A DNA stretch of 64,000 nucleotides. Source: Fibrobacteria bacterium (GTDB lineage: Bacteria; Fibrobacterota; Fibrobacteria; UBA11236). Position numbers and translations under genes: made by a program. The stretch's first letter is position 1. Every line of letters starts with the position of its first letter. Below, in pieces: positions 2,876 to 63,042 of this stretch. Where the stretch lies: contig JAYTHY010000088.1 of NCBI GenBank assembly GCA_043732185.1, forward strand, positions 3,410 through 67,409, in the 5' to 3' direction. The notes below the pieces were generated by a model. The model made no database searches. It was not told the DNA's origin and saw nothing but the letters and a program-made list of their open reading frames with translations.

Positions 2876-3703
2876 ATGAATAAAGTTCCGCAATGCTTCC
2901 TATTCCTTTTCGCCGGATTGTTTTCATTCACACGGACCCAGGGTGAAAGCTTTCGAATTTCCGGACTGGCCGTGGGTATTGGAGACTGGATAAACGTCTC
3001 GGACCGGGATTGGAGCACACGGGAGGATTACGGAACCTTGCCTGCAGCCTCCTTGTATTGGGCTGGGTGGGGCTGGAACGGCAGCTTGGGCGTCCCATTG
3101 AAATCCTCATTCAAACGGATTGGGCATAAGACACGCTACTCGCTAGGTGACGGTGAAATATCGGTGGGGAAGCGAATCGGCGCGTGGTCTCCCAGGATGT
3201 CCCTGAAATTCCCTGCCTATGATTGGTCCGTGGCGCATCCGGGAGTGAACGAACTGTATATCGGAAGTGGCACCTGGGATTTGGCTGTAGGGTTGGGCGG
3301 ACGCATTCCAAATAGCTTTCTCTCCAAGCGGCTTACCCTTCAATTCGACATCGAGGGGTCCACGGTTCTGGCGACCGGATTGGCTGACTACGGTTCGTAC
3401 AAAGGCCTTGGTGCCTTCCAGGCTTCGTATGCTTTGGGCAGCCGTTGGAAGGCAGGGATGACCACACTCTTTCTTTTCGATCACTGGATCTGGATCCCGA
3501 ATTATTGGGATCAGGAGGGAGAAACCAAATTTTCCATTGTACCCGGAGCCGTCGTAGGAGTCAGGATTTTCCAATCCACCTATTTGGATGCTAAAGCCGG
3601 TTGGGGCTTGTATGAATACAAGAAGTTGATCCGTCCAAAGTATGCGACTCTAAGCCAGGACTCATATCACTTCGGCATCTCCATTTATCAAGCTTTCAAA
3701 TGA
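2876..3703 (+). CDS. hypothetical exported protein, possibly an outer-membrane beta-barrel
   Basis: 275 aa with an N-terminal signal-like sequence (CFLFLFAGLFSFTRTQG). Alternating aromatic/Gly-rich strand-like segments run throughout. No recognisable catalytic motif. The 3' end overlaps the convergent DUF2063 gene by 42 nt. Confidence 0.5.
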   Translation: MNKVPQCFLFLFAGLFSFTRTQGESFRISGLAVGIGDWINVSDRDWSTREDYGTLPAASLYWAGWGWNGSLGVPLKSSFKRIGHKTRYSLGDGEISVGKRIGAWSPRMSLKFPAYDWSVAHPGVNELYIGSGTWDLAVGLGGRIPNSFLSKRLTLQFDIEGSTVLATGLADYGSYKGLGAFQASYALGSRWKAGMTTLFLFDHWIWIPNYWDQEGETKFSIVPGAVVGVRIFQSTYLDAKAGWGLYEYKKLIRPKYATLSQDSYHFGISIYQAFK

Positions 3704-4486
3704 AGGCTGCTCGAACCATTTTAGGCGCGTCCAGGTTTCGAACCAAGAGGGAATCTTGGACATCAAAGAGTTTACCTCCGGGGAATCAAGATTTTCGGCC
3801 ACAGCTTCACATGCCAAACCCAGGGGCTGGCCCGCGCGTAGCCTGTTCAACAGGTGGAATGGAATCGGATCCAGTTCTTTCCACTCTACATCATTCCCAT
3901 TTCTAAAAACCGCCCAATAACCCTTCCTGTCCAGGACAATCGGAACTTCATTCTTTTTTTCCTCCAAGGCCGTGCGGCATTCCATCAGGTTCCAGTCCTC
4001 TTCCAGCAGGGAAAAACATGGCTGAAAAACCAGGGAAGTGTCGGCCAGTATTTCCAATTCTCGTGGGGAGAGTTTGCTCGGGTCCAAGGGGAAAACAACA
4101 GGTGCATGAAAGGCATTCAGCATGGCTATTTCCAGGGCAGCGATTTGTATGAGTTGGGGTGTATTGTAAATCACACTGGTTTTTAAAAATTCCACGAACC
4201 CATTGGGCAAGTTTTGGAGATAGGGCGAGCGGGAAGGATGCTGATCCAGAAAGGCCGTTGCAAGTTGATTGAATTTCCAAAGGCCCATGGTCCCGGCCAG
4301 CAGGGGAAAATCCTGTTGGAGAACTGTCATTAGGCGATACCAATATTGCTCATTGTATACCACTAGTCGATCTATTCTGGATTGGAATCGGCCGGTGGAA
4401 AAGGAGAATGGCGTTCGGATCAATTTACCGAATTGTTCCTGGATTAGAACCAGTTCGAGTGGTGGGATCCTTTTTTCCATTTTCAA
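3662..4486 (-). CDS. DUF2063-family protein (MNIO partner, BufC/HvfC-like)
   Basis: 274-aa ORF directly abutting the DUF692 gene. The track start is a TTG at 4486 that overlaps the upstream TGA. An alternative ATG at 4480 lies 2 nt after that stop. Size and position match the DUF2063 partner found next to DUF692 enzymes. The family call is by context plus general sequence character. Confidence 0.65.
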   Translation of the reverse strand: MKMEKRIPPLELVLIQEQFGKLIRTPFSFSTGRFQSRIDRLVVYNEQYWYRLMTVLQQDFPLLAGTMGLWKFNQLATAFLDQHPSRSPYLQNLPNGFVEFLKTSVIYNTPQLIQIAALEIAMLNAFHAPVVFPLDPSKLSPRELEILADTSLVFQPCFSLLEEDWNLMECRTALEEKKNEVPIVLDRKGYWAVFRNGNDVEWKELDPIPFHLLNRLRAGQPLGLACEAVAENLDSPEVNSLMSKIPSWFETWTRLKWFEQPSFESLINGDAEVI

Positions 4487-5304
4487 CAGGCCACCTGGTA
4501 GTCGCGGGCCCGCAGCGCTTCGGCATGCAGCTCTGGAAATGGGGGGATTTTATCATCCCGTTCCAGCAAGGTCGGAAATCCGCCGGAAATATTCCATGCA
4601 TGTCCATACAATTCCCAAACCTCGCGGCGCACTTTTTCCTCATGGGTGTCGAGGAGGGTGCCATCCTGTTTTTCAGTGTGACCGGCGATATGGCATTGTA
4701 AAACTTTGTCCCAGCGAATGGAATCCAGATACCTTCGGGCGTCAAACCCATGATTCACGGAAGAGACGAATACGTTATTGATATCCAGCATGTACCCACA
4801 TCCGGAAAGTTCCACCACTCGATTGTAAAAATCCGATTCTTCCATTTCGCTTTCCTTGAAGCTCGCGTAACTCGATAGATTCTCCAATCCGAAAGGAATG
4901 CCGATGAAATCCTGAACTTCGGAAATCCGTTCTGCTATGTACCGCGCATTTTCCTCCGTGTACGGTACAGGAAGGAGGTCGTGGTGATGGATTCCATGGG
5001 TGGAAGTCCAGCAAAGGTGATCGGTGAAATATGGTGTTGCAGTCATTACGGTGAGAGCTTTCAAACGATCCAAATAGGAATAATCCAAAGGATCAGTTGA
5101 AGCGATGCCCAAGCTGACACCGTGGAGCACGACAGGATAGGTGGAAAGAATTCGCTCAAGATTCCGTTTTGGAAGCGGCGCATCGCCCATGAAGTTTTCC
5201 GATACAATTTCGAAAAATTCCACTTTCGGCCATTCGGAAAAGATGTGGCGGTAATGCGGCAATCGCAAGCCTAGTCCTATAGCGTTTCGTGGAATTCTGT
5301 TCAT
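4483..5304 (-). CDS. DUF692 / multinuclear non-haem iron oxidase (MNIO, MbnB/TglH/BufB family)
   Basis: The blocks GLGLRLPHYRHI...VEFFEIVSENFM...LHGVSLGIAS...YFTDHLCW...HHDLLPVPYTEE are typical of UPF0276/DUF692. I moved the start to the ATG at 5304. The track start at 5463 would overlap the precursor gene by about 100 nt and read through the 13-bp hairpin. Confidence 0.85.
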   Translation of the reverse strand: MNRIPRNAIGLGLRLPHYRHIFSEWPKVEFFEIVSENFMGDAPLPKRNLERILSTYPVVLHGVSLGIASTDPLDYSYLDRLKALTVMTATPYFTDHLCWTSTHGIHHHDLLPVPYTEENARYIAERISEVQDFIGIPFGLENLSSYASFKESEMEESDFYNRVVELSGCGYMLDINNVFVSSVNHGFDARRYLDSIRWDKVLQCHIAGHTEKQDGTLLDTHEEKVRREVWELYGHAWNISGGFPTLLERDDKIPPFPELHAEALRARDYQVAC

Positions 5305-5318
5305 GGAGTTTTCAATAC

Positions 5319-5360
5319 GGCTCCTCCGCTTTACCGCTATCGGATTTAAGCGGAGGAGCC
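5319..5360 (-). promoter_or_regulatory. perfect 13-bp stem / 16-nt loop intercistronic hairpin between the precursor gene and the MNIO gene
   Basis: GGCTCCTCCGCTT (5319-5331) and AAGCGGAGGAGCC (5348-5360) are exact reverse complements. The hairpin lies 6 nt after the precursor stop (5367-5369) and 14 nt before the MNIO ATG (5304). No strong U-tract follows it on the mRNA. Confidence 0.7.
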
Positions 5361-5366
5361 ATTGGT

Positions 5367-5666
5367 TCAGGACTCGATACAGCTCCCGCCCTTGCAGGCG
5401 GAATGGCCTTTGCACTCGTGTTGCGCAACGCCCTTTCCTTCCTGGTAGCTGTGGCCTTTGCACTCATTCAGGGACTGGCACTCATGGGTCTTGAAGGTGC
5501 CCCCCAATTTGGTACACTCCGTTTGGAAGTCGGCCAGGGTCTTGGCTGCGACGATGCCGTTCATAGTCGCTGGCGCGCTGGAAGTACTGTTTTCGCATGC
5601 CGTAAAAGTAAAGCTGCCAGCCATCATTCCTGCGATGGCGAGACGGGTTAGTGATCGCTTATCCAT
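5367..5666 (-). CDS. exported Cys-rich RiPP precursor candidate (bufferin/DUF2282-like), probable lipoprotein signal
   Basis: 99 aa. AAGGAG (5674-5679, minus strand) sits 7 nt upstream of the ATG. The signal peptide MDKRSLTRLAIAGMMAGSFTFTAC has a relaxed lipobox (FTAC). The C-terminal half carries 6 further Cys and a duplicated ECKGHS motif (NECKGHSYQEGKGVAQHECKGHSACKGGSCIES). It lies immediately upstream of the DUF692 and DUF2063 genes. Confidence 0.75.
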   Translation of the reverse strand: MDKRSLTRLAIAGMMAGSFTFTACENSTSSAPATMNGIVAAKTLADFQTECTKLGGTFKTHECQSLNECKGHSYQEGKGVAQHECKGHSACKGGSCIES

Positions 5667-5759
5667 TCTTAATCTCCTTATCAGGAACCCGGAATTGGGT
5701 TCGCCAATGTGTCTTTGTCGTTACGCAAAATGTTTCAAACAAAATGATCGACTCCTTCA

Positions 5760-6407
5760 TCAAAAAGTATTTTCCATGATCGCCTGCGGAAACTGAGACC
5801 GGATTTTTTCGACGATCAAACATCTGGCTCGATGCAGTCTCACCCGGACCAGGGATTTGGTAATGCCCAGTTCGAGTGAGGTTTCTTCACCGCTGAGTCC
5901 CTCGAAATCCCTGAGGTAATGGACGTCACGGTATTTCCTATCTAATTTTGCCGCGGCAAATTCCACCATCCGCACCAGCTCCAATTGCATGAGGACGCTG
6001 TCAGGCAAGGGATCTTTCGATTCAATATTTTCAAGGACATGGGATTGGGTAGTGGGCGAATTTACCTTACGGTATTTTTCGGCCAACTTGTCGCAAATCT
6101 TATGGTAGGCCAGGGAAAAAATCCAGGTGGACAACTTACACCGGCCTTCGAATCCGGGAAGCCCTCGATGCACGGCAATGTAGGTTTCTTGCAGGATCTC
6201 CTCTACGGCGCATGAGTCTGGAAAATATCGATGCACATAGGAGGACAATGGGGCATAGGTTTGGTTGAAAAGGTGGCTGAATGCTCTTTCGCATCCAGGG
6301 GTCTCGGAGCGCACCTCATTCAGGAAAGATGCCGTATTGATCTCCAGGAAAGGTTCGCTCGGTTCGCGAAATTTTTTCCCGGACGCGAAAGATTTGGGTA
6401 CTACCAC
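5760..6407 (-). CDS. ECF-type RNA polymerase sigma-70 family factor
   Basis: 215 aa. The region 2 block EEILQETYIAVHRGLPGFEGRCKLSTWIFSLAYHKICD and the region 4 block RDFEGLSGEETSLELGITKSLVRVRLHRAR are present. It lies 93 nt upstream of the precursor gene on the same strand. Confidence 0.85.
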   Translation of the reverse strand: MVVPKSFASGKKFREPSEPFLEINTASFLNEVRSETPGCERAFSHLFNQTYAPLSSYVHRYFPDSCAVEEILQETYIAVHRGLPGFEGRCKLSTWIFSLAYHKICDKLAEKYRKVNSPTTQSHVLENIESKDPLPDSVLMQLELVRMVEFAAAKLDRKYRDVHYLRDFEGLSGEETSLELGITKSLVRVRLHRARCLIVEKIRSQFPQAIMENTF

Positions 6408-6632: not shown

Positions 6633-7472
6633 ATGAGTCCTTCTACGGTCGAGCCGGATGTCCTCCATTACTCGGATTACCGGACCTTTCTCCGAGATCT
6701 TTATGATTTCAGAAAGTCCCGGCAACCTTCGTTCTCCTACCGGTATTTTGCCCAAAAGGCTGGCATCGGCAGTCCCAACTACCTGAAGCTGGTCATGGAC
6801 GGAGAGCGAAATCTGACCAAAAAAAGCCTGGTGAAATTCCAATCCGCCTTGGGCCTCAAAAGCAGAAGGGCGGAATTCTTCGAGAATTTGGTATTTTTCA
6901 ACCAGGCTACCACAATTTCGGAGCGGAATATCTACTATGAAAACATCCTCAAGGTGCGCACCCGGTCGGGTCTTAGAAAGCTTGAGGAAAACCAGTTCCA
7001 ATTGTTTACGGACTGGCGACATATCGTGATTCGAGAGATGGTGGCGCTTAAGGGGTTTCGGCCGGATCCCCACTGGATACTTCGGAAGTTAGGCAAGGGA
7101 TTCACAGTGAAGCAGATTGAAGAATCACTGGCTCTCCTTTCCAATATGGGGCTCCTCAAACGGACGGCCAACGGTGTCGCCCAAAGTGACGTCAACATTA
7201 CCACCTCCGATGAAGTACGTTCTCTACTGATCAAGAACTATCACCGGCAGATGATGCAAAAGGCTCTCACCGTGCTGGATACTCTGCCCGCCTCCCAAAG
7301 AGACATTTCCAGCATCACCATCCCAATCCATGCCCGGGATTTCATCAAGGTCAAGGAACTCATCCAGCTTATGCGCAAGGAGTTGTTGAATCTGGGTGCT
7401 GATTCCGGTGAGGGCGGAGAAGTGGTGCATATCAATATTCAGCTTTTCCCTCTGACGGGCATGCAGGATTGA
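6633..7472 (+). CDS. TIGR02147-family protein (Fibrobacter-type paralogous family, HTH-like N-terminus)
   Basis: 279 aa. The N-terminal block YSDYRTFLRDLYDFRKSRQPSFSYRYFAQKAGIGSPNYLKLVMDGERNLT is the hallmark of this family. It is clearly paralogous to the ORF at 63039-63914. Confidence 0.75.
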   Translation: MSPSTVEPDVLHYSDYRTFLRDLYDFRKSRQPSFSYRYFAQKAGIGSPNYLKLVMDGERNLTKKSLVKFQSALGLKSRRAEFFENLVFFNQATTISERNIYYENILKVRTRSGLRKLEENQFQLFTDWRHIVIREMVALKGFRPDPHWILRKLGKGFTVKQIEESLALLSNMGLLKRTANGVAQSDVNITTSDEVRSLLIKNYHRQMMQKALTVLDTLPASQRDISSITIPIHARDFIKVKELIQLMRKELLNLGADSGEGGEVVHINIQLFPLTGMQD

Positions 7473-23223: not shown

Positions 23224-23252
23224 TGGACAAATCAGGTGCCTACCCCTATAAT
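23224..23252 (+). promoter_or_regulatory. sigma-70-like promoter upstream of the pseudopilin operon
   Basis: TGGACA (23224-23229), a 17-nt spacer, then TATAAT (23247-23252). It lies 39 nt upstream of the GTG start at 23291. Confidence 0.45.
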
Positions 23253-23290
23253 CGACTCAAAGTTTACAACGAAATCAAGGCCTAAAGAAG

Positions 23291-24100
23291 GTGAAAAATA
23301 AAGTCAGGTCTTCCAATCTGGGCATGACTCTCATTGAGGTTGTGGTTGCTATGGTAATTGGTACTGCAATTTCTTTGCTTGCCTATCGGTTCTATCAAAA
23401 ATTTGTGCAAGGGTTGGCTCAGCAAAAACAAATATCTTCTCTCCAAGATGGCATTCGCAACGCTTCGGACTGTATCAACCGGTTCTTAATCGCTGGGGGT
23501 GTATCGGGTGATTCACTTTTTTTTGATCCGCATAAAAAATTATCAGCTGACTTTGTAAATGGAGGCCATCGCGTGTTCGATGTAAACGCGGATTCATCCA
23601 CCTTAAGCGTTTATGGAAATTTCTCTGGTAGCGCTGCCAGCCTGGTAAGTCCGGTAGTTGATAAAACAATTCGCTCGGTTAAAACCGACAAGCCCTGGCT
23701 CTTTAAGGCCGGCGGGTATGCCTATATTTATGCCGGCAGCGCCCAAGAGGTTGCCAATATTCTTTCCATATCCGATTCCACCTTAAATCTAGCCGATGAT
23801 TTTTTTGCGCCGTATCCAAAAGGCACGCTCATTTTTCCATTGGAAAGAATTAGCGTGCGCTTGGTTAACACAAAGACTCTGCGCGTTTCCAGGGAAAGTC
23901 CAAATGGAGTAGCGTCATTTGTCCGGGATTTCACGCCTACCGAGCATATCGGTGATTCTCTGAATTTTAAAGTAAAAACGGTGGATAAAAAGGCCGGCCA
24001 AATTTCGTACGCGCTCGCTTTCACGGCAAAAACAGGGGCGCCGCCGCACATGGTTTTAGCCCGCCAATCTGACCAAACTGTTTTTGTCAGAGGATTCTAA
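23291..24100 (+). CDS. prepilin-type N-terminal cleavage/methylation domain protein (PilW/minor-pilin-like pseudopilin)
   Basis: The N-terminus ...SSNLG|MTLIEVVVAMVIGTAISLLAY fits the G-[FM]-T-L-I-E class III signal. 269 aa. The stop overlaps the next start (TAATG). Confidence 0.75.
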   Translation: MKNKVRSSNLGMTLIEVVVAMVIGTAISLLAYRFYQKFVQGLAQQKQISSLQDGIRNASDCINRFLIAGGVSGDSLFFDPHKKLSADFVNGGHRVFDVNADSSTLSVYGNFSGSAASLVSPVVDKTIRSVKTDKPWLFKAGGYAYIYAGSAQEVANILSISDSTLNLADDFFAPYPKGTLIFPLERISVRLVNTKTLRVSRESPNGVASFVRDFTPTEHIGDSLNFKVKTVDKKAGQISYALAFTAKTGAPPHMVLARQSDQTVFVRGF

Positions 24101-25929
24101 TGAATCCAAAGACGCAATTGAGGACAAACGAGACAGAAAACCAAAAGGGTGCGGTGCTATTTGTGGTGTTGATTCTGGGCATAGTGATGGCTTTGGTTCT
24201 TTTTGTTGTGATGGGGCGTAGCGCCCGGAATAGAATTGACACCGCAAAGAATCTGAAGGGCACCCAGGAATTTTATTTGGCGGACGCGGGATTCAACTTT
24301 ATCAAGACAAAGGTCACGGCGCTTAACATTGAAGGCGGTTCCAAAAAAGTGCAGGCCTTTCTGGATGGTCAAGTGGCAAATGGTTGGCAAAAATTGGCGT
24401 TCAATACCACCGACCAGGGATATTTTCGACTACAGAAATTTAAAATCATACCTGTCCCTCTTTCCATTGAGTTTACGGTTCAAGGGGCCAAGGACCCGAC
24501 CCAATTCGCGCTCAGATGGGAAAGCGCCCAAGGGGTATTGAGAGTCCCAAGTTTGGCACGGTATGCCCGGTACGTAGAGGGCAATAGTACATTAACCTAT
24601 ACGGGCGGTACCACCGTGGACGGGGAAATTTTGGTGGCCGGCGACATAAATCTTTCCAGCTCTACAGTTAAATTCACCCGCTTAGTGGGTACAGGTTCTG
24701 ACATTATCAACCCGAATTTTGGCCAGTATGATTTTGGATTTCGTTTGAAGCAAGTTGACATTCCCACCTTGAATAATGTGCATGTAAATGAATGGGACAA
24801 TTATATGTACGATGCCAGCAAATACACCCAAACTTTCCAATACTTTGCCAAGAACGGAGGCATCGCCTTCATGGATCAAGATGCGTCTCCCTTGAACCCG
24901 GCTTGGAACAATAAAAACACCACGGGTGCCTGCGCAGACACGGGGCCATGCGACACACTCTTTGCCGGATGTTATGATACACTTAGCGTTTCTCGCCGCA
25001 GTCCGGTGATAGTAGCCGGCAGCGCCGTTGCCGTAGATCTGTCGAGAATTGCCATAGTGGGAGATTCCGTAGTGGTTTTTGTTAGCCCCGTTGTTTACGA
25101 TGCCGGTGGGGACGGGATGGACTGGATCGCGCTTGGCCAACCGGAGCGGCGTTACTCCAGACTGCTCGCCACTTTTAAGGACAATGCCGTGCTCTATTTT
25201 CCCGGTGATATTTATTTGACGGGTCAGCTCAAAAATATTCCCATCACCGTTGCATCAGGAGACGATGTCTTTTTGTATGGAAGTTTTATCGGACCTCTCA
25301 AAAGCGAGGTGGATGCCTCCGGGATGCCGGTAACCTTGGGGGTTGTGGCTCAGGATAGGATCTATATCCATGAAAGTTCCTCCCGTGAGTTAACGATTCG
25401 CGCTGCTGTTATAGCTGAAAATGATGAACTGATTTACGATGATGCTTTAGGCGTTGCAGGCTGGCGCTATGGATATGTTTGCCACCGGGAAATCTTTGAT
25501 CCAATGAATCTGCCGGTTAAAGGCAGCCCAGTCCAGTTCTCTAAATATTTCCAGAACAATTATATCTGGGACGATGGTCGTATCAAGCAATCTGGATTTG
25601 GACGTGAGCCGGAAGAGGAATGCCGGGCGGATGGCACCTGCCCCAACAAAATCATGGAAAGCTACGGCTTCGCAGTATTAGGTTATGCACGAACCGGTGG
25701 CAGTGCATGGAAATTTAAATTTGAAGGGTCTTTAATTACGCGCAACCCAGGTTCCAAAGGCCCTAAAAATGATTGTGGCAGAGGATGGGATTGCGATACG
25801 GAACCTGGCCGCGTGACCTGGAGCTATGACGATAATTTAGGCGTTGCTTATCCTCCAAAATTTCCAGCGCCGGTGGTGGATGATCGCAATCCTTCCCAAG
25901 TTATCGGATTCAAAAGGAAAAGCTTTTGA
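24100..25929 (+). CDS. large PilX-N-terminal-like pilus-associated protein (possible tip/adhesin component)
   Basis: 609 aa. NQKGAVLFVVLILGIVMALVLFVV followed by QEFYLADAGFNF resembles the PilX N-terminal domain (no Glu5). The remainder is a long, beta-rich extracellular region ending ...AYPPKFPAP. Confidence 0.55.
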   Translation: MNPKTQLRTNETENQKGAVLFVVLILGIVMALVLFVVMGRSARNRIDTAKNLKGTQEFYLADAGFNFIKTKVTALNIEGGSKKVQAFLDGQVANGWQKLAFNTTDQGYFRLQKFKIIPVPLSIEFTVQGAKDPTQFALRWESAQGVLRVPSLARYARYVEGNSTLTYTGGTTVDGEILVAGDINLSSSTVKFTRLVGTGSDIINPNFGQYDFGFRLKQVDIPTLNNVHVNEWDNYMYDASKYTQTFQYFAKNGGIAFMDQDASPLNPAWNNKNTTGACADTGPCDTLFAGCYDTLSVSRRSPVIVAGSAVAVDLSRIAIVGDSVVVFVSPVVYDAGGDGMDWIALGQPERRYSRLLATFKDNAVLYFPGDIYLTGQLKNIPITVASGDDVFLYGSFIGPLKSEVDASGMPVTLGVVAQDRIYIHESSSRELTIRAAVIAENDELIYDDALGVAGWRYGYVCHREIFDPMNLPVKGSPVQFSKYFQNNYIWDDGRIKQSGFGREPEEECRADGTCPNKIMESYGFAVLGYARTGGSAWKFKFEGSLITRNPGSKGPKNDCGRGWDCDTEPGRVTWSYDDNLGVAYPPKFPAPVVDDRNPSQVIGFKRKSF

Positions 25930-25969
25930 ACCGCGTACAACTGCAATGGAACTTCCAAGGTGGTAGGAC

Positions 25970-27514
25970 ATGACTGCTAAATTCAAATCAAACGGACAAT
26001 CCGGCTTTGGGCTACTGGAGTCGATTACCGGACTCTTGGTTTTTGTGCTGCTCGCCTTTGTCGGCACCAAAGCGTTTAAGCATGTGGTGGCCAATCATAA
26101 AGAAGCGGCTCAGGTAAAAATATTGGTGGATGCCGTTACGGAAACCGCAGAAAAACTGAGCATGTTAAGCGTAGCCGCTCTCAGTGATCCCTCCGCCGGC
26201 TATTTGAATTGGAGTCAGACGCAATCCGTAGGCAAGGGTGAATACGTTTATCGTTATCGAATCATTCCTCGTCCCGCAATATCCGGAGCCCAGGACTCCA
26301 CTTTGGTTGGGCTGGAAGTGGAAACGGGAACGCTTGTTCAGAATGTGTTTACGGTAGTTCGGCGTTTTGCCACTTTGATTGCGCCGCATCTTTCGTCTAA
26401 GGATGGTCTGGGCCAAGTTTCCACTCAGAAGGAACGCGATGCCGAAGCGAGCTTTTATGCTTCTTTGCGGCAACGCATAGCAGGCTTGACGCAGGATGTT
26501 GTCCCGCTCAATCAAGTGAAGTTGAACTCATATACCTGTTATGATAAAGGACAATGTTGCGGTTTTATGAAAGAGTTTTTCAAAGACCCACTGGTGAATC
26601 CCGCGGATGGACTTAAGGAGAAATGTTTGTACCGCTGTGCGCTTACTGGCGGCGTTTCTATGACCGACTGGCAAAATTCCTGTGGAACTGATTTTTGTGG
26701 CTTGGCACCCTGGAAAACCAAAGACGATTGCTGTAAGGCGATCAGCTCTGGAAATTGTCTACAGGGTAGCGTCTGCGCGAGCGTCTGTTATGACTGTGTT
26801 CACGAAGATGGCAGTGGATGCGCCGCGCCGATCTGTGATGGCGGTTGGTGGAATGACATTTTTGACTGCGCTAATGGTACCTACTGTGACGGAACGCCTT
26901 TGCCGGACGGGGATGTGCCCGGTTGGGGCAATGTTAAGAACTTATGCAAATTGCCGCAATGCGGAACCATCCACGAGGAATGCAGTCAGAAACTTGATGT
27001 ATGCTGCAACAGTTATTGGGTGAAATTGGCCAGAGGAGAAACTCCGGATCCACGCGCGATGGTTTGTGCGACTATTAGTAAGAAAGAGGAATGTTGCGAC
27101 AGAAACACGCATGTAGGAAATTTTGGCTTCGTATGCACAACTTCGGGAACCGTCGAACATGTCATTTACCATGATACCGCCTTTTGTCCTGCGGATGTAT
27201 TCAAATCCAGCCAGGACAATTACTGCGCCATTTATCAGGGCTGTTCCGGGGCATACGGCGGAACCGACAAGACCGGTGGTCCTCCGGGCTGTCCGGCGTG
27301 GCCTGGCAGCTATCCAAAGCTCGATGATCCCTGGCAGAATCCAATTCCGCCTCCACCCGCTCCTCCGACTGCTCAACCACCCTATCAGCCACCGGCACAA
27401 CTGCCGTCTCCTCCGCAGTTGACGCCTCCCGTTATCGCGCCTCCTACCGGGGATAAGCGCGTAGCACCGGTACGTGGAGGATCAGGAAAGGGTTCAGCGG
27501 GTGGACAGGAATAA
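25970..27514 (+). CDS. pseudopilin-like protein with a Cys-rich domain and Pro-rich tail
   Basis: The N-terminus GQSG|FGLLESITGLLVFVLLAFVG is prepilin-like with Glu at +5. Residues 190-441 contain 30 Cys, including four CC doublets. Residues about 455-493 are proline-rich (PIPPPPAPPTAQPPYQPPAQLPSPPQLTPPVIAPP). Confidence 0.65.
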   Translation: MTAKFKSNGQSGFGLLESITGLLVFVLLAFVGTKAFKHVVANHKEAAQVKILVDAVTETAEKLSMLSVAALSDPSAGYLNWSQTQSVGKGEYVYRYRIIPRPAISGAQDSTLVGLEVETGTLVQNVFTVVRRFATLIAPHLSSKDGLGQVSTQKERDAEASFYASLRQRIAGLTQDVVPLNQVKLNSYTCYDKGQCCGFMKEFFKDPLVNPADGLKEKCLYRCALTGGVSMTDWQNSCGTDFCGLAPWKTKDDCCKAISSGNCLQGSVCASVCYDCVHEDGSGCAAPICDGGWWNDIFDCANGTYCDGTPLPDGDVPGWGNVKNLCKLPQCGTIHEECSQKLDVCCNSYWVKLARGETPDPRAMVCATISKKEECCDRNTHVGNFGFVCTTSGTVEHVIYHDTAFCPADVFKSSQDNYCAIYQGCSGAYGGTDKTGGPPGCPAWPGSYPKLDDPWQNPIPPPPAPPTAQPPYQPPAQLPSPPQLTPPVIAPPTGDKRVAPVRGGSGKGSAGGQE

Positions 27515-28619: not shown

Positions 28620-28898
28620 GGGCCGAAAACCTACTTCCAGGGCGCGGTTTGGTCTAAAGCAAATCCCTAAAAATGCCGAAAAAATTCAAGTTGCATGCCT
28701 TACTTGAGGAATGGCATAATGGCCAACATAAAGAAGCAGATACATTTTCCGATGATGGCAGGAGGCACCGGATTGTTGGCAGTAAGGCCCCCCAGGTCCT
28801 CGATCGAAAATTTTTTAAATATCGATGGAATCCCATCTTCCCTGGGGAATGCGGCCAATGATGGGTATTATTTGCCTCGAATAGCTTTGGCACCCTTA

Positions 28899-30701
28899 AT
28901 GCAATCCACACTCCGCGACATTATCCTGCAAGTTAAAGAAAACGCGGATATCGTTCAGATCATTGGCCAGTATGTGCCCCTTAAAAAATCCGGGGCCCGG
29001 TATTTGGGACTTTGCCCCTTCCATCACGATCGAAGCCCCAGTTTAAACGTGACTCCGCAAATGGGCATTTACAAATGCTTTGCTTGCGGGGCTGGCGGAG
29101 ATGTCCTCAAGTTTGTGCAGGAATACGAGAAGCTGGATTTTATCGATGCCTTGCGGGCCGTGGCTGTGCGCGCAGGCGTGACTATTCCCGAGCATCTTCA
29201 TTTTTCCAAGGATGAAGAGGACAAAGGAAAGGCCAGCCAAGCCCTGGCAGCCAATCAACTTGCCTGTCAACTGTACCAAGAGGAATTGGAAAACAATTCG
29301 GAAGTCCTTGCCTATTTGGACGGACGCGGTATTCATGCGGAAACCCGCAAACATTTCCAATTGGGATTGGCTCCGCTTTCTACCGATAAGATTTTAAAAA
29401 AAGCGGATGCTAAAAAGGTACCTGTCCAGGCTTTTATTGAGGCTGGTATACTGGGAGAAGCGCCTGGTGGCCGCGTTTATGATCGATTTGCCGGTCGACT
29501 CATTTTCCCTATTTGGAACTTAAGCGGACATGTGATCGGGTTTGGTGGCCGGGTGTTGCCTTCGAATGATCCGGCCATTCCCGTTCATCCTGCCAAGTAT
29601 GTCAATTCTCCGGAGTCGCCGTTTTACCATAAAAGCAAAGTGCTGTATGGACTCAATTTCGCTCGGAATGCCATAGACAAATTGGGTGAAGCCGTAATTG
29701 TAGAAGGCTATATGGATATGTTGGCGTTGTGGCAAGCCGGCATTCATAACACCGTCGCGGTTTCGGGAACGGCATTGACCAAGGACCATGTGCAAATCTT
29801 GGCTCGCTTTGCCCGTAAGATTTATCTGTTTCTAGATGGAGATGCCGCTGGGCGCAAGGCGGTGCGGAGAAGCTTGGAACCGCTCCTCGTTATGGGATTG
29901 GAAGTTAAGGTACCCGTGCTCCCATCCGAAGAAGATCCGGACAGCTACGCAAAAAAATTTGGCGGAGAGAAAATCAAAGAGCTCTTTTCCCGCAGCGAAG
30001 ATATTGTGGCCTTCCTGCTAAGAAATGCAGGCAAACCGATTGAGGCCATGAGTCCGGAAGAAAAGGACGAATTGCTTAAGGAATGTTTGGGGCTATTGCA
30101 AACCATGCCTTCTCCTAATGTTCGCGACCAATACCTGGATGAGGTGCGCCGAAAGCTGGGGCTCAAAGGCATTCGGCTTCAAATGGCCCGGACGCAAGGG
30201 CCCGCTTCCTTTGCAGTGGTCTCCGCCGCGGGTCAAGGTACGGAAAATACGGATATGATTGCCGTTTTCGCCGGTGCTATTCCGGGGGGACGTCCCAAGG
30301 ATGAAGCTTTGGCCGAATGGCAATTGCTACAACTGCTATTGTCTTCCGGTGAGGCCTGTGGCTGGGCCCTGGACAAGCTTCGCTTGGAATGGCTGCTTGT
30401 CGACACAGTGAGAAATCTTACCGATTTACTGTTGGCTTTTTACGAAGAACGGGGCGGATTGGACATTAAGGTCTTTCTCGATCGCTTGTCCCAGCAGGAT
30501 CAAGACACCATCTCCGGCATGCGCTTCATTGAAGGCATGGATCAGGAACAATTAAAAAAGCATTTTTCCGGAATCCTTTTTGCTTTGGAAATCCGTTCTC
30601 TGCAAAAGCAAAAGGCCATGGAAGAGGATTTGATCAAATACGCTGACATCGTAAAACGTTTGAAAGTTCTCCAATCGAAAACCAAAGGCGGGTCCCCATG
30701 A
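28899..30701 (+). CDS. dnaG: DNA primase
   Basis: CHC2 finger [13 protein letters not shown]....[20 protein letters not shown] core [22 protein letters not shown]...[19 protein letters not shown] and Toprim [12 protein letters not shown]...FLDGDAAG. I placed the start at the Met (28899) just before the finger. The track start at 28695 adds 68 non-primase-like residues. The stop overlaps the rpoD start (ATGA). Confidence 0.92.
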
Positions 30702-37981: not shown

Positions 37982-38000
37982 GGCTAACCTCGCGTTAGCC
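37982..38000. terminator. short hairpin between convergent fusA-like and primase-like genes
   Basis: GGCTAAC (37982-37988), loop CTCGC, then GTTAGCC (37994-38000). It overlaps the stop of the minus-strand gene. There is no clear U-tract. Confidence 0.3.
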
Positions 38001-39083
38001 CTTTCGGAACCATTCGTTCAGATCCATTCCTTTGGGAGGCGCAAGCCTCCTTACATCTACGCCATGAGCTTTTAGAATCTCCATGGTTTTAAGGGCACCG
38101 GACTCTCCAGGTGCGTCCGGATCGTAAGCAACGTGCACGGTTTTGTTTGCGAATAAATCAGCCCAATGCGGTTTGAAAATAGCCGCTCCAGGAACTCCCA
38201 CGGCAGGAAACCCTTGTTCAATCAGGGTAAGCGTGTCAATGATGCCTTCGCATAGGTAGATTTGGCCGGGCACTCCATCGAGTACGCGGCAGTTATATGG
38301 CAAGGGAATATGTCCGGACATGGAGAGTTCCTTGGGGCGCACATCGGCATCGATAGCGCGCGCTTGCATATACACCGGTTGCCCAGACTGATTGTAATAC
38401 GGAAAAAGCAATGGATGTCGATAGTAGCGTAGGTGACCGGCTGCATTGAAGAATCCCGTGCGCTCCAAATCGGCTAGGCTGAAATCTGCCTCCAATTTGC
38501 GACTCACTTCGGAATAATTTTGGATCATTCGCAATCCTTGCCTGTCCCAAGTGCGTTTGAAAATGCGCCGTTTTACCAGGTACTGGCCCACTCTTCCGCT
38601 TAAAGGTGTACATGCGACTAGCAACGCTTTCAAAATTGCGTGACGCAGCAACTCATCCTGGGACTCCACGGGAACTGGCGCACGGGATGACGCCACGGAA
38701 CCGGATTCATTTAGTACAGGGTGCGGCATGACCAGGGGCAAGATGGGCTCGGTTAAATCCGTTTCGTTATAGATAGCGATTGGATGAACGATGCCTGGAT
38801 GTTTTCTTTTTAAGAAGACCAAGGCTTCTGGAAAAGTACAGCCCCGTGCCAATCGAACCAGATCAATGCTGTCGCCTTTCACATCCGGACACACCCAACA
38901 CTTGAAGCTGCCACGTTCGGGCCAGATGGTTACGGAAGGGCTTTTATCTCCATGGGAGTGGTTTTCCGGACGTAGACAGCGGATACGGTTATTGAGTACC
39001 GGTATTCCCAAATCGTGCAGGACCTCAAGAATCGGGTAGTCCGCCTTCAGCTTATCAATATCGGCCTTGTCCATGGGGATCAA
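37995..39083 (-). CDS. compact CHC2 zinc-finger / Toprim primase-like protein (second DnaG-like gene)
   Basis: CHC2-like finger C-LRPENH-SHGDKSPSVTIWPERGSFKCWVC. DnaG-core-like stretch HLRYYRHPLLFPYYNQSGQPVYMQARAID....PKELSMSG. Toprim block IYLCEGIIDTLTLIEQG...VAYDPDAPGESGA. No helicase-binding C-terminal domain. The track start is a TTG at 39083; an ATG lies at 39074. Confidence 0.7.
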   Translation of the reverse strand: MIPMDKADIDKLKADYPILEVLHDLGIPVLNNRIRCLRPENHSHGDKSPSVTIWPERGSFKCWVCPDVKGDSIDLVRLARGCTFPEALVFLKRKHPGIVHPIAIYNETDLTEPILPLVMPHPVLNESGSVASSRAPVPVESQDELLRHAILKALLVACTPLSGRVGQYLVKRRIFKRTWDRQGLRMIQNYSEVSRKLEADFSLADLERTGFFNAAGHLRYYRHPLLFPYYNQSGQPVYMQARAIDADVRPKELSMSGHIPLPYNCRVLDGVPGQIYLCEGIIDTLTLIEQGFPAVGVPGAAIFKPHWADLFANKTVHVAYDPDAPGESGALKTMEILKAHGVDVRRLAPPKGMDLNEWFRKG

Positions 39084-61312: not shown

Positions 61313-63042
61313 AATGCTGCCTTTTTTATCAAGATCTTTCTGTCCCCCAACTTATTTAAATAGCTCATCCTAACCGAGCTTGGGGATTGAATACCCAGAA
61401 AAACCCTCACCTCATCCATTTCCCCATCGAAATACTGACTAGCGGGTTCGGGATTCCAGGATTTCAAGCTACCTTGCCCTATTCTCCAATACCCGGTGTA
61501 TTGGTAGGGGTGCAAGCTTCCTTCCACGTGGGCCATGCGTAAACCATCGATATACAAGTTCAACCCTGACAACGTCATTCCGGCGACGACATTGTGCCAG
61601 TTGCCGTCATTGAGGGCACCGGCAGAAGCCACGGTCCAGAAAATGGGATTGCCGTCTGCGCCTCTAGGTAACCATTGCCAGGTCCCAAAATGAATGAGTC
61701 CCGCGTTGTCCATCCAGATGTGTCTATCATAATCACCTGCGTCACCAGTCGGATTGGTGTGGAATCCAATCAGCTTGCCACCCTGGGTTGTTATTGTTCT
61801 GAACCAAAGTGAAAGCGAAAGGGTGTCAGGAGCTGCCATGGGTTTACTGGTCGTAACGAATCTAGTTCCACCCAAACGAATGGCTTGTGCAATAGGCGCA
61901 GAAGTGGTATCCCAGCCCACGGGGGCATTCTGAAGGATGCCGCCATTGCCCATACTGGAAGCATCAGATAAACCCGCTGCCAGGTTTCCACTCGTGGGCT
62001 GGAAATGCCAAACGCCTCGATAACCGGAAAGAGAATCAAATACTAGGGCCCCATTGGAACGGCTTAAGGCTCCGGGCCTACCCCAATGCACATGCAGTGT
62101 CTGTTGATCATTTCCTGCTTGTAGAGAATCCATGCGTACCCAAATCATGGCCCGGCCCAAGGACGCACTCCAATATTCAATTTCAAAATCAAGATGGGTT
62201 CCATCAGCGGCAGAGAAACGCAAGTCAGAACCGTCTGGTGCCGCAGTAGCAAAAGAAAAATTTGTCGAGTCCAGTAGTACCACAAAAGGAAAGTCTGATA
62301 GGCCTTCCAACAAGCCAGCGCCGAGGGGGCCCGTGCGGACCGTCAGGGTTTTCTCATGCGCCCATGTAGCATAATCCCCATCATCTACCGTGGCCATATC
62401 GATTATTGGGAGCTGCACCGTGTCCTTGGAAAGCACGGAAATACCATATACATCGTGTGGAGAACAATTGGTTTGGCAGCTGGAGCGCAAGGTGTAATTG
62501 CCTTCCGCCAATCCCTCTAGACGAAAGCTTCCATCAAGGTTGGTGCGCCAAACCCGGTCTAAACCATAAATGCGAATCAGACCGGCTGAGTCGGTGCCGG
62601 TGGGGAAACGCAAGGTACCCTGGATGCTACCGCCAGGTTTGGTCACCGTAAGCGGCAGATCCATTTTTTTCTGCGTAGGGTCCGATTGGAAGCGGCGCAA
62701 GGCTACGTCTCCATTGGCAACCCGGATTTCGGTGGTATAGGTTCCGCCAGCTACGGAATCCAATACGAATCGCCCCGCACTGTCAGTTAGGGCTTCATGA
62801 GAGCCCATCAGTGAGCCTGGAGTCGTTGACCCCGGGAGGTAATCGGTAGAACGCAGAATCACCCGGGCCCCGATAACCGGTCTATTTAGGGTATCCACTA
62901 CTTGGCCTGTGACGACGGTTGTCTCAGAACCACTTCCTCCGCCAGCTGTGCGATCCGAGTTAGGGCCGCCGATGAAATTGCAGCCCTGGCAAGTTAGGAG
63001 ACCTGTCATAAGTGCAGCGAGGCTGGTTTGTCGCAATTTCAT
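61309..63042 (-). CDS. lipoprotein with CarboxypepD_reg-like, DUF2341 and LamG (concanavalin-like) domains
   Basis: Lipobox region LMTGLLTCQGC. VTGQVVDTLNRPVIGARVIL...TDSAGRFVLDSV. DUF2341 block DGSDLRFSAADGTHLDFEIEYWSASLGRAMIWVRMDSL...TLHVHWG. LamG-like block GVWHF....DSS..GN.G, then ...NWHNVVAG......LYIDG. Confidence 0.75.
   Translation of the reverse strand: MKLRQTSLAALMTGLLTCQGCNFIGGPNSDRTAGGGSGSETTVVTGQVVDTLNRPVIGARVILRSTDYLPGSTTPGSLMGSHEALTDSAGRFVLDSVAGGTYTTEIRVANGDVALRRFQSDPTQKKMDLPLTVTKPGGSIQGTLRFPTGTDSAGLIRIYGLDRVWRTNLDGSFRLEGLAEGNYTLRSSCQTNCSPHDVYGISVLSKDTVQLPIIDMATVDDGDYATWAHEKTLTVRTGPLGAGLLEGLSDFPFVVLLDSTNFSFATAAPDGSDLRFSAADGTHLDFEIEYWSASLGRAMIWVRMDSLQAGNDQQTLHVHWGRPGALSRSNGALVFDSLSGYRGVWHFQPTSGNLAAGLSDASSMGNGGILQNAPVGWDTTSAPIAQAIRLGGTRFVTTSKPMAAPDTLSLSLWFRTITTQGGKLIGFHTNPTGDAGDYDRHIWMDNAGLIHFGTWQWLPRGADGNPIFWTVASAGALNDGNWHNVVAGMTLSGLNLYIDGLRMAHVEGSLHPYQYTGYWRIGQGSLKSWNPEPASQYFDGEMDEVRVFLGIQSPSSVRMSYLNKLGDRKILIKKAAF

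What the first reader, a model, noticed from the sequence alone, without database searches (positions are those of the whole stretch)
23224..27514. Orphan three-gene pseudopilin operon with no assembly machinery nearby
- Three co-directional genes follow a near-consensus TGGACA-N17-TATAAT promoter. The first junction is TAATG and the second gap is 40 nt.
- They encode a class-III-signal pseudopilin (G|MTLIEVVV), a 609-aa protein with a PilX-type N-terminal anchor, and a second prepilin-like protein (G|FGLLES).
- No prepilin peptidase, ATPase, platform or secretin gene lies within the 64 kb. The flanks are alaS and an SDR gene.
- This looks like a minor-pilin/tip module that is presumably primed onto a pilus or T2SS-like fibre encoded elsewhere.
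- In Fibrobacter-like organisms, pilin-type proteins have been linked to substrate adhesion.
Basis: partly seen in the sequence, partly recalled or inferred. Interest (0 to 1): 0.65.

Follow-up and report, generated by a model that had tools for sequence, protein, structure and literature searches.

The report
Minor-pilin tip module of an uncultured Fibrobacteria lineage
Three adjacent genes in an uncultured Fibrobacteria genome encode pilin-like proteins that most likely form the tip of a type IV pilus built by machinery encoded elsewhere; this layout is ordinary, but the third protein carries an unrecognised domain with 30 conserved cysteines.

Summary
Three co-directional genes follow an 11/12 sigma-70-like site: g1 (23291-24100), g2 (24100-25929) and g3 (25970-27514). 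The g1/g2 junction is TAATG and the g2-g3 gap is 40 nt.

- **g1 and g3** carry canonical class III signals (G|MTLIE, G|FGLLE). Gly-1 and Glu+5 are kept in every ortholog.
- **g2** has a conserved QRG|AxL leader that never has Glu+5, the mark of a filament-capping subunit such as GspK or PilX. [quoted passage not shown] - **g3** is a modular pilin: a pilin module, then a 250-residue domain with 30 conserved cysteines that matches nothing, a Pro-rich linker and a conserved C-terminal end.

No secretin, ATPase, platform protein or prepilin peptidase lies in the window. That is normal for minor-pilin operons; E. coli ppdAB-ygdB-ppdC sits between thyA and recC.

The cassette occurs only in 11 Fibrobacteria/Fibrobacterota MAG species, between alaS and an epimerase-dnaG-rpoD block in most of them. 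It is under purifying selection, and g3 occurs in 1-3 tandem copies.

Verdict: a real, lineage-specific member of a known kind, a type IV filament tip/priming module. Moderate interest.

The parts
23224..23252 (+). Candidate sigma-70-type promoter TGGACA-N17-TATAAT for the three-gene operon
   Evidence: It matches 11 of 12 consensus positions. It is one of only two such sites in the 64 kb, against about 0.9 expected. It lies in the 179-nt alaS-g1 intergenic region. A TATAAT-like -10 box recurs upstream of g1 orthologs. Function is not shown.
23291..24100 (+). g1: 269-aa prepilin-type protein. It has an 11-residue leader ending in Gly and a mature N-terminus MTLIEVVV. It sits in the PilW/GspJ position, upstream of the cap subunit.
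   Evidence: It reaches the cut-offs of Pfam N_methyl (24.1 bits against 21.2) and TIGR02532 (20.8 against 16.3). Gly0, Thr+2, Leu+3 and Glu+5 are invariant in 10/10 orthologs. The family profile matches the PilA N-terminus 9laa_A at E=6.5e-4. The globular part has no recognised homolog. There are 68 ortholog clusters, all from the same lineage.
24100..25929 (+). g2: 609-aa ComZ/PilX-type cap pilin. Its start codon overlaps the g1 stop (TAATG).
   Evidence: The junction is shown. The leader QKG|AVLFVVL has an invariant Gly and never has Glu at +5 (34/34). The AlphaFold2 model (pLDDT 78.7, pTM 0.71) shows helix 15-94, four strands 97-148, a beta-rich solenoid-like region and a final strand 600-607. 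The g2 family against the broad family gives hhalign probability 100%, E=1.8e-47. The broad family against ComZ 6qvi_A gives E=2.8e-6 (E=1.9e-6 with g2 included). It has no Pfam or NCBIfam hit of its own.
24568..25824 (+). g2 beta-solenoid region (about residues 157-575), apparently inserted before the last strand of the pilin fold. It holds 8 cysteines.
   Evidence: The secondary-structure order comes from the model. The best fold match, though weak, is the ice-binding protein 6eio (E=0.029), and the second is a tapirin, 6n2b_A (E=1.4). The solenoid of ComZ is likewise closest to an ice-binding protein (PMC6561018). Cysteine positions are, and all 8 are invariant in the family.
25970..27514 (+). 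g3: 514-aa modular pilin with a 12-residue leader and mature N-terminus FGLLES
   Evidence: Gly0 is kept in 52/52, Phe+1 in 48/53 and Glu+5 in 54/54 family members. The family profile matches the PilA N-terminus 9laa_A at E=0.0016. 36 of 57 family members match Pfam N_methyl at E<=1, but the window copy does not. In the AlphaFold2 model, helix 13-64 and sheet 92-137 form a pilin-like module.
26537..27292 (+). g3 cysteine-rich module (residues 190-441), with 30 Cys including four CC doublets
   Evidence: All 30 Cys are kept in 56-57 of 57 family members that are 45-94% identical. Model confidence is mostly 85-94 and the region is mainly helical. It has no match in Pfam, NCBIfam, PDB sequences, PDB folds or viral folds.
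27293..27511 (+). g3 Pro-rich variable linker (residues 442-494), followed by the conserved C-terminal end R-x4-R-x-G-x6-GG-x-E (residues 495-514)
   Evidence: The alignment of 57 sequences shows it. R497, R502, G504, G511, G512 and E514 are invariant. Mean identity is 0.22 in the linker and 0.44 at the C-terminal end. Its function is unexplained.

Best explanation
The three genes encode subunits of a type IV filament, most likely a type IVa pilus. Together they would form the complex that starts assembly and ends up at the tip of the fibre.

**Proposed mechanism**
- All three proteins are inserted in the inner membrane by their N-terminal hydrophobic helix.
- A prepilin peptidase encoded elsewhere cuts them after the conserved Gly.
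- g2 lacks Glu5 and carries a bulky beta-solenoid, so it is the distal cap, like GspK, PilX and Thermus ComZ.
- g1 and g3 keep Glu5. They dock under g2 through their helices and link it to the major pilin.
- g3 displays a disulfide-knotted 30-cysteine module on a Pro-rich stalk, probably as the ligand-binding (adhesive) element. This is the role PilY1 or grafted modules play in other pili.
- The machinery (ATPases, platform protein, PilMNOP, secretin, major pilin) is encoded at other loci.

**Shown here**
- The class III motifs and their conservation.
- The absence of Glu5 in g2.
- The remote homology of g2 to ComZ.
- The pilin-like predicted fold of the g3 N-terminus.
- Conserved gene order and purifying selection.

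**Inferred, not shown**
- Cleavage by a prepilin peptidase.
- Formation of the complex.
- Location at the tip.
- The identity of the ligand.
- The existence of the machinery in this genome.
For: **Class III signals**
- g1 reaches the cut-offs of N_methyl and TIGR02532.
- Gly0 and Glu+5 are kept in every aligned g1 and g3 sequence. In g2, Gly0 is invariant and Glu+5 is never present.
- PilX-type terminal subunits are described as lacking Glu5 (bioRxiv 10.64898/2026.02.12.705559).

**Link of g2 to ComZ**
- The g2 profile finds 83 distant relatives in the representative library.
- hhalign of the g2 family against these relatives gives 100% probability, E=1.8e-47, over 411 columns.
- The relatives alone hit ComZ 6qvi_A at E=2.8e-6.
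- One relative, P0104, matches Pfam PilX_N at E=1.1e-4.
- ComZ is a tip pilin with a beta-solenoid inserted between the penultimate and last strands of the pilin fold. Its solenoid is closest to an ice-binding protein (PMC6561018).
- The g2 model has the same order of elements, and its best fold hit is an ice-binding protein.

**Genomic context**
- Relatives of g2 sit directly after one or two N_methyl genes in small operons.
- The order g1-g2-g3 is kept in 10 of the 11 GTDB species that have the cassette, with alaS on the upstream side wherever enough flank is available.
- Synonymous codon differences exceed nonsynonymous ones 3- to 4-fold.

**Precedents**
- Modular pilins with grafted effector modules are widespread (PMC8179133).
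- Cysteine-rich tip proteins exist: PilY1 proteins carry 7-30 Cys (PMC13190605).
- All 10 Fibrobacteres genomes surveyed carry pilC, pilD, pilM, pilN, pilO, pilQ and pilT, and 9 of the 10 carry pilB (PMC4704652, Table 4).
Against: - No machinery gene, major pilin or fourth core minor pilin (FimU/GspH/FimT type) lies in the window or in any orthologous locus. I could not check their presence in this genome.
- g2 itself matches neither Pfam PilX_N nor ComZ directly. The link is transitive and covers only the helix, the pilin sheet and the first solenoid turns.
- Fold searches of both models found nothing significant.
- The globular parts of g1 and g3 have no detectable homology to PilW, PilV, GspI or GspJ.
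- All three proteins are unusually well conserved for surface-exposed adhesins: 45-70% identity across the lineage.
- The complex was not modelled.
Confidence: 0.7

Rival explanations
1. The filament and tip-complex architecture are the same, but the function is DNA uptake. g2 would act with a neighbouring pilin as a tip DNA receptor of a short competence pilus, as ComZ-PilA2 do in Thermus and the PilX-Com/PilV-Com sets do in cyanobacteria.
For: - The only solved relative of the g2 superfamily is ComZ, which binds DNA and its neighbour PilA2.
- In cyanobacteria, one set of beta-solenoid PilX proteins is required for transformation.
- The high conservation and the position among housekeeping genes (alaS, dnaG, rpoD) fit a conserved cellular function better than a fast-evolving adhesin does.
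- g1 residues 207-250 give marginal matches to an S1/OB-fold protein (E=0.027; E=0.043).
Against: - Homology to ComZ is remote and does not cover the mapped DNA-binding lysines.
- The S1-like matches are not significant.
- Nothing in ComZ systems resembles the 30-Cys module of g3 or its tandem duplication to 2-3 copies, which looks more like ligand diversification.
- No competence genes (comEA, comEC, dprA) were seen in the window.
Confidence: 0.2
2. The three proteins are the tip of a type II secretion pseudopilus, the counterparts of GspJ, GspK and GspI. They would drive secretion of hydrolases rather than form an external pilus.
For: - The QRG|xxL leader without Glu5 is shared with E. coli GspK.
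- g1 gives weak GspJ and GspI N-terminal hits (E=0.03-0.07).
- The g3 model weakly resembles EpsI (2ret_A, E=0.62).
- F. succinogenes is reported to have a type II secretion pathway (PMC3079729).
Against: - Every match to Gsp models is confined to the N-terminal helix and lies far below the curated cut-offs: GspJ 14.1 bits against 64.85, GspI 13.6 against 44.35.
- GspK carries an alpha-helical insertion, not a beta-solenoid (PMC6561018).
- In the E. coli gsp operon inspected, the pseudopilin genes lie beside the machinery genes, which is not the case here.
- A 609-aa cap plus a 514-aa modular pilin on a Pro-rich stalk is hard to fit inside a periplasmic pseudopilus.
Confidence: 0.1
3. The proteins are not filament subunits. 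The N-terminal helices would be uncleaved membrane anchors, and the three proteins would form a lineage-specific envelope or periplasmic complex unrelated to pili.
For: - No machinery or major pilin is nearby.
- The neighbourhood is housekeeping and conservation is high.
- ComZ itself was not predicted to be a prepilin peptidase substrate (PMC6561018).
Against: - Strict conservation of Gly-1 and Glu+5 in g1 and g3, and of Gly-1 in g2, is hard to explain for a plain anchor.
- Relatives of g2 are always adjacent to N_methyl genes.
- The g3 N-terminus is predicted to adopt a pilin-like fold.
Confidence: 0.07

Closest known systems
Thermus thermophilus ComZ (PDB 6QVI) with its neighbouring minor pilins PilA1-3
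   Same: - An N-terminal hydrophobic helix, a pilin-like sheet and a large beta-solenoid inserted before the last strand.
- The solenoid is closest to ice-binding proteins.
- The gene lies next to minor-pilin genes.
- ComZ is proposed to cap the tip.
- The sequence link is transitive: E=2.8e-6 and hhalign 100%.
   Different: - Direct identity is undetectable.
- g2 is longer and has 8 invariant Cys.
- The partner pilins differ: a 269-aa g1 and a 514-aa Cys-rich g3.
- DNA binding was not tested.
- The ComZ locus also holds the major pilin pilA4 (the paper's introduction), whereas this operon holds none.
Cyanobacterial PilX proteins with a beta-solenoid (PilX-Com and PilX-EPS) in FimT-PilW-PilV-PilX priming complexes (bioRxiv 10.64898/2026.02.12.705559)
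   Same: - A Glu5-less terminal subunit with a bulky triangular solenoid, proposed to replace PilY1 as the tip plug.
- The genes lie in small minor-pilin operons that may be away from the machinery.
   Different: - Only three genes are present here, and no FimT/FimU-type adapter was recognised.
- The gene after the cap is a modular Cys-rich pilin.
- Homology to the cyanobacterial proteins was not tested directly.
E. coli ppdA-ppdB-ygdB-ppdC, and P. aeruginosa fimU-pilVWXY1Y2E from my own knowledge
   Same: - A minor-pilin operon that stands apart from the assembly genes and is flanked by housekeeping genes (thyA and recC in E. coli).
- The gene order runs from a PilW/GspJ-position gene to the Glu5-less cap and then to a further pilin.
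   Different: - The E. coli proteins are small (107-187 aa).
- Similarity is confined to the N-terminal helix.
- There is no solenoid and no Cys-rich module.
Modular pilins, such as Streptococcus sanguinis PilB (vWA module) and PilC (lectin module); PMC8179133
   Same: g3 is a small pilin module joined by a linker to a bulky extra module. Such a module is expected to be exposed at the tip and to bind ligands.
   Different: - The extra module matches no known domain.
- It holds 30 conserved Cys in about 250 residues.
- It is followed by a Pro-rich stalk and a conserved C-terminal motif.
Caldicellulosiruptor tapirins (PDB 4WA0, 6N2B)
   Same: [quoted passage not shown]
- The broad g2-like family profile hits 4wa0_A at E=0.0045, at the motif DYAxF...G.VYSGGD.
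- A tapirin is the second-best fold hit for the g2 model.
   Different: - The matches are weak: 19.4 bits, and Foldseek E=1.4.
- As far as I know, tapirins are not pilins and have no class III signal.
- Cellulose binding by g2 is untested.

Membership tests
Type IV pilin / pseudopilin superfamily (class III signal; Pfam N_methyl PF07963, TIGR02532) | A short polar leader ending in Gly, then a hydrophobic residue at +1 and Glu at +5, followed by about 20 hydrophobic residues | tested here: met
   g1 scores 24.1 bits on PF07963 (cut-off 21.2) and 20.8 on TIGR02532 (cut-off 16.3). In g3 the motif G|FGLLE is kept throughout the family, the family profile hits the PilA N-terminus at E=0.0016, and 36/57 members hit PF07963 at E<=1; the window copy itself has no hit. 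g2 has the Gly and the hydrophobic helix but no Glu5.
Type IV pilin / pseudopilin superfamily | Cleavage and N-methylation by a prepilin peptidase, and polymerisation by a PilB/PilC-type machine | not testable with these tools
   No peptidase or machinery gene lies in the window or in the fetched loci. The only support is the phylum-level survey (PMC4704652).
Type IV pilin / pseudopilin superfamily | The 'lollipop' fold: a long N-terminal helix packed on an antiparallel beta-sheet | tested here: inconclusive
   The AlphaFold2 models show helix 13-64 plus strands 92-137 in g3, and helix 15-94 plus strands 97-148 in g2. Foldseek gave no significant pilin match; the best pseudopilin hit was EpsI at E=0.62.
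Pfam PilX_N (PF14341) | A match to the PilX N-terminal HMM at or above the gathering score (25.5 bits) | tested here: not met
   None of the 34 g2 family members matches at E<=10. A distant relative, P0104, scores 22.5 bits (E=1.1e-4), which is below the cut-off. The motifs QRG|AxL and FYxAD/EAG are visible by eye.
ComZ-type / beta-solenoid PilX tip pilins | Sequence homology to ComZ | tested here: met
   It is met only transitively. The g2 family profile alone finds no ComZ hit. The g2 family against the distant relatives gives hhalign 100%, E=1.8e-47. The relatives against 6qvi_A give E=2.8e-6, and the combined profile gives E=1.9e-6.
ComZ-type / beta-solenoid PilX tip pilins | A beta-solenoid inserted between the penultimate and last strands of the pilin fold | tested here: inconclusive
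   The order of secondary-structure elements in the model fits: sheet 97-148, solenoid, final strand 600-607. The best fold hit is an ice-binding protein (E=0.029), as reported for ComZ. I could not inspect the coordinates to confirm that the last strand rejoins the sheet.
ComZ-type / beta-solenoid PilX tip pilins | No Glu5 (capping subunit), and a gene adjacent to other minor-pilin genes | tested here: met
   Position +5 is V, I, L, A or Y in 34/34 members. g2 is flanked by g1 and g3. Relatives are flanked by N_methyl genes.
ComZ-type / beta-solenoid PilX tip pilins | Binding to a neighbouring pilin and to DNA or another ligand; location at the tip | not testable with these tools
   This needs biochemistry or imaging. 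Modelling of the complex was not available.
T2SS minor pseudopilins GspI, GspJ and GspK (TIGR01707, TIGR01711, GspK) | A match to the equivalog models at the curated cut-off | tested here: not met
   g1 scores 14.1 bits on GspJ (cut-off 64.85) and 13.6 on GspI (cut-off 44.35). g2 and g3 have no hits. hhalign against E. coli GspI, GspJ and GspK aligns only the N-terminal 15-43 residues.
PilY1/PilC tip adhesins | A C-terminal PilY1 beta-propeller domain; the protein is not a pilin | tested here: not met
   No Pfam or NCBIfam PilY1 hit was found in g2 or g3. g3 is predicted to be mainly helical in its C-terminal module and has a class III signal.
Modular pilins (sensu Raynaud et al. 2021) | An N-terminal class III signal and pilin module, plus an additional non-pilin module | tested here: met
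   In g3 the leader and pilin-like module span residues 1-140. A linker helix follows, and then a separate module (190-441) that is confidently modelled at pLDDT about 85-94. The extra module has no database signature.

The most novel reading that the evidence does not exclude
The cassette would be a Fibrobacteria-specific tip device in which two new ligand-binding elements ride on pilin anchors.
- The first element is a ComZ/tapirin-related beta-solenoid cap (g2).
- The second is a previously undescribed fold stabilised by up to 15 disulfides, or by bound metal (the g3 module), held on a Pro-rich stalk. In some genomes g3 has diversified into 2-3 tandem copies.

If the solenoids of ComZ, cyanobacterial PilX and the Caldicellulosiruptor tapirins share one origin, this would be a pilin-anchored, tapirin-like device for binding polysaccharides. 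It would connect type IV pili mechanistically to polymer attachment in the Fibrobacterota.
Probability: 0.2. Interest if true: 0.6.

Novelty: new member of a known kind. Interest (0 to 1): 0.35.

Why it matters
- **Annotation.** The result gives names to three protein families that are currently 'hypothetical' and have no Pfam domain beyond the N-terminal motif. It assigns them to an uncultured Fibrobacteria lineage found in glacier-fed streams, soils and groundwater.
- **Reach of the ComZ class.** It extends the ComZ/beta-solenoid PilX class of tip pilins, so far described in Thermus and cyanobacteria, to another phylum. The class also extends to a broad set of metagenomic proteins: 83 representatives at 50% clustering.
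- **A possible shared origin.** It points to a possible common origin of these solenoids with the tapirins, which are cellulose adhesins.
- **The g3 module.** This is a compact domain with 30 conserved cysteines and no detectable relative. It is a good target for structure determination and ligand screening.
- **Biology.** In a phylum known for attaching to insoluble polymers, identifying the pilus tip proteins shows where to look for the adhesin.
- **What is not new.** The 'orphan' genomic position itself is not a discovery.

Tried and rejected
**Searches that found nothing**
- Pfam and NCBIfam scans of g2 and g3 gave no hits. Scanning all 34 g2 and all 57 g3 family members one by one gave no PilX_N hit, and for g3 only weak N_methyl hits.
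- PDB sequence searches with the g2 and g3 family profiles gave only N-terminal or chance hits.
- Foldseek of both models against the PDB, and of g3 against viral structures, found nothing at E<=0.001.
- hhalign of the three family profiles against E. coli PpdB, GspJ, GspK and GspI aligned only the N-terminal helix. The globular domains therefore cannot be assigned to PilV, PilW, GspI or GspJ by sequence.

**Attempts that failed or were blocked**
- I tried to fetch more genomic contexts of the broad g2-like family from metagenome contigs. Both alignments were too diverse for the tool.
- I could not check for pilB, pilC, pilD and pilQ elsewhere in the same genome.

**Ideas considered and rejected**
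- *g3 as a heme or ferredoxin-type electron carrier.* It has no CxxCH motif, and the ferredoxin match is E=0.52.
- *The g3 tail as a known C-terminal sorting signal (PEP-CTERM, GlyGly-CTERM, LPXTG, T9SS CTD).* There is no hydrophobic segment after the motif; the comparison with those signals is from my own knowledge.
- *The promoter as statistically exceptional.* There are 2 sites against 0.9 expected.

Full report
**1. The observation**

The g1 stop and the g2 start overlap as TAATG. The g2-g3 gap is 40 nt and holds an AAGGTGG motif.

TGGACA-N17-TATAAT lies at 23224-23252 and matches 11 of 12 consensus positions. Only two sites this good occur in the 64 kb on both strands, against about 0.9 expected, so the count alone is not beyond chance. 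The site does sit in the 179-nt alaS-g1 spacer, and a TATAAT-like -10 box recurs upstream of g1 orthologs. The other site is antisense inside g2.

Against loci that are 96% identical, codons with synonymous differences outnumber nonsynonymous ones 3- to 4-fold in each gene. All three genes are therefore real and under purifying selection.

**2. No machinery nearby**

Pfam scans of about 50 ORFs across the window found only housekeeping and unrelated genes. These include serine dehydratase, an MbnB-like/DUF2063 pair, rseP, dxr, cdsA, uppS, frr, pyrH, tsf, rpsB, a SulP transporter, alaS, an RmlD-type epimerase, dnaG, rpoD, relA/spoT, fusA, murB, aroA, SurA-like proteins and others.

tblastn with E. 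coli GspD, E, F, L, M and O against the window and every fetched locus (362 kb) found nothing. g1 and g3 are the only ORFs in the window with an N-terminal G|PhixxxE motif, so there is no major pilin either.

**3. The N-termini**

| Protein | Motif | Conservation | Database support |
|---|---|---|---|
| g1 | G|MTLIE | Gly0, Thr+2, Leu+3, Glu+5 in 10/10 orthologs | N_methyl and TIGR02532 cut-offs reached |
| g3 | G|FGLLE | Gly0 52/52, Phe+1 48/53, Glu+5 54/54 | Family profile hits a PilA N-terminus at E=0.0016; 36/57 members hit N_methyl weakly |
| g2 | Q-R/K-G|A-x-L | Gly invariant; +5 always hydrophobic, 34/34 | No hit of its own |

Lack of Glu5 is the recognised mark of the terminal subunit, GspK or PilX. 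E. coli GspK starts with the same QRG|VAL.

**4. What g2 is**

g2 has no Pfam, NCBIfam or PDB sequence hit of its own. An exhaustive profile search found 83 representatives at E<=0.001.

Beyond the close orthologs, these are 400-650-aa metagenomic proteins that share four features:
- the G|xxL leader;
- an AFYxAEAG motif;
- a YxRFxE...YGxGxxxxGxV solenoid start;
- a C-terminal YDxDLxxxPPPxFP...W.E.

Profile-profile comparison of the g2 family with these relatives gives 100% probability, E=1.8e-47, over 411 columns. The relatives alone hit Thermus ComZ (6qvi_A) at E=2.8e-6. With g2 included the value is 1.9e-6. One relative, P0104, gives a sub-threshold PilX_N hit.

ComZ is a tip pilin with a beta-solenoid inserted before the last strand of a GspK-like pilin fold. 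Its solenoid is closest to an ice-binding protein (PMC6561018). All cyanobacterial PilX proteins have the same design.

The AlphaFold2 model of g2 (pLDDT 78.7, pTM 0.71) shows:
- helix 15-94;
- four strands, 97-148;
- a long beta-rich region;
- a final strand, 600-607.

Its best fold hit, though weak, is an ice-binding protein (6eio, E=0.029). The second is a tapirin (6n2b_A, E=1.4). The broad family profile also hits tapirin 4wa0_A at E=0.0045; 4WA0 is the cellulose-binding beta-helix of Calkro_0844. This is a lead, not a result.

**5. What g3 is**

The model (pLDDT 77.6) shows four parts:
- a pilin-like module, with helix 13-64 and strands 92-137;
- a linker helix, 153-185;
- a confidently modelled, mostly helical module, 190-441;
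- a disordered tail.

The module holds 30 Cys, including four CC doublets, and each is kept in 56-57 of 57 sequences. It matches nothing in Pfam, NCBIfam, PDB sequences, PDB folds or viral folds.

The tail is a variable Pro/Gly/Thr-rich linker. It ends in an invariant R-x4-R-x-G-x6-GG-x-E. g3 fits the definition of a modular pilin (PMC8179133). Cysteine-rich tip proteins have a precedent in myxobacterial PilY1 (PMC13190605).

**6. What g1 is**

g1 is a 269-aa prepilin. Its globular part is highly conserved (motifs GDSLFFDPH, NGGHRVF, AGSAQEV, YPKGT, PLER) but has no recognised homolog. It occupies the PilW/GspJ position, directly upstream of the cap.

**7. Distribution and context**

- g2 has 38 clusters at 90% identity, g3 has 60 and g1 has 68. 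All come from metagenomes or MAGs labelled Fibrobacteres, Fibrobacteria or Fibrobacterota.
- Among 185,579 GTDB species genomes, only 11 carry the cassette, and all are such MAGs. The closest, at 96%, are glacier-fed-stream MAGs.
- The order g1-g2-g3 is kept in 10 of those 11 species. The loci with annotated gene tables (L001, L003, L007) show the same alaS | g1-g2-g3 | epimerase | dnaG-rpoD neighbourhood.
- g3 occurs in one to three tandem copies.
- The most divergent member, at 47%, has a different neighbourhood, and a g1-like gene lies downstream of it.
- Distant relatives of g2 sit in operons of the form pilin (about 140 aa), pilin (about 200-276 aa), g2-like gene, small gene. These too have no machinery within 10 kb.

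**8. Interpretation**

The cassette is best read as the minor-pilin tip/priming module of a type IV filament. g2 is the Glu5-less solenoid cap. g1 and g3 are the Glu5-bearing subunits beneath it. The g3 module is a displayed effector.

Separation from the machinery is ordinary. E. coli keeps ppdA-ppdB-ygdB-ppdC between thyA and recC.

Whether this genome has the machinery could not be tested. In a published survey of 10 Fibrobacteres genomes, all carried pilC, pilD, pilM, pilN, pilO, pilQ and pilT, and 9 of the 10 carried pilB (PMC4704652).

The function of the tip remains open between adhesion, DNA uptake and secretion. I favour ligand binding or adhesion because of the modular g3 and its duplication. 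The ComZ link and the high conservation keep DNA uptake alive as a rival.

**9. Verdict**

In kind it is a new, lineage-specific member of a known class. The most original element is the 30-cysteine module of g3.

Noticed in passing
window 3662-6407, - strand: A possible RiPP cluster of the bufferin/methanobactin type (my own reading). It consists of a 99-aa ORF (5367-5666), an MbnB/TglH/ChrH-family gene (4483-5463, E=4.6e-97), a DUF2063 gene (3662-4486) and an ECF sigma factor (5760-6407). The 99-aa ORF has a signal/lipobox-like N-terminus and Cys/His-rich C-terminal repeats (HEC...CKGHS), and it has no Pfam hit.
   Followed up: partly
window 25559-25586, - strand: The only other 11/12 sigma-70-like site in the 64 kb (TTGATA-N16-TATAAT) lies antisense inside g2. 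It is probably chance: 2 sites were found against about 0.9 expected.
   Followed up: partly
window 27452-27511 (g3 residues 495-514), and all g3 homologs: An invariant hydrophilic C-terminal end, R-x4-R-x-G-x6-GG-x-E-COOH, follows a variable Pro/Gly/Thr-rich linker. No transmembrane segment follows it, so it resembles no sorting signal that I know. Its role is unexplained.
   Followed up: partly
L001 11992-14840; L012 9902-12729; L013 11854-16201: g3 is duplicated in tandem (2 to 3 copies) in several related genomes but is single in the window. The copies keep all the cysteines and are about 50% identical to the window protein.
   Followed up: partly
window 23909-24040 (g1 residues about 207-250): There are marginal matches to the S1/OB-fold protein GSP13 in two libraries (NCBIfam E=0.027; PDB 2k4k_A E=0.043). 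They are not significant. If real, they would hint at nucleic-acid or oligosaccharide binding.
   Followed up: no
distant g2 relatives (alignment A5) and PDB 4wa0_A / 6n2b_A: The profile of the broad g2-like family hits the cellulose-binding beta-helix of a Caldicellulosiruptor tapirin (E=0.0045), and a tapirin is the second-best fold hit of the g2 model. The solenoids of ComZ/PilX proteins and of tapirins may share an origin.
   Followed up: partly
window 6633-7472 (+), 63039-63914 (-), 37995-39083 (-): There are two DUF4423 genes, a family I know from Fibrobacter, and a second, short DnaG-like gene (CHC2 zinc finger plus Toprim) in addition to the canonical dnaG at 28695-30701.
   Followed up: no
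L023 5738-11676: One metagenomic contig carries two minor-pilin modules in tandem. The first ends in a g2-like protein whose N-terminal helix is called as a separate 76-aa ORF. The second ends in a DUF7305 protein with a PilX-like leader. This suggests that DUF7305 proteins belong to the same functional class.
   Followed up: no
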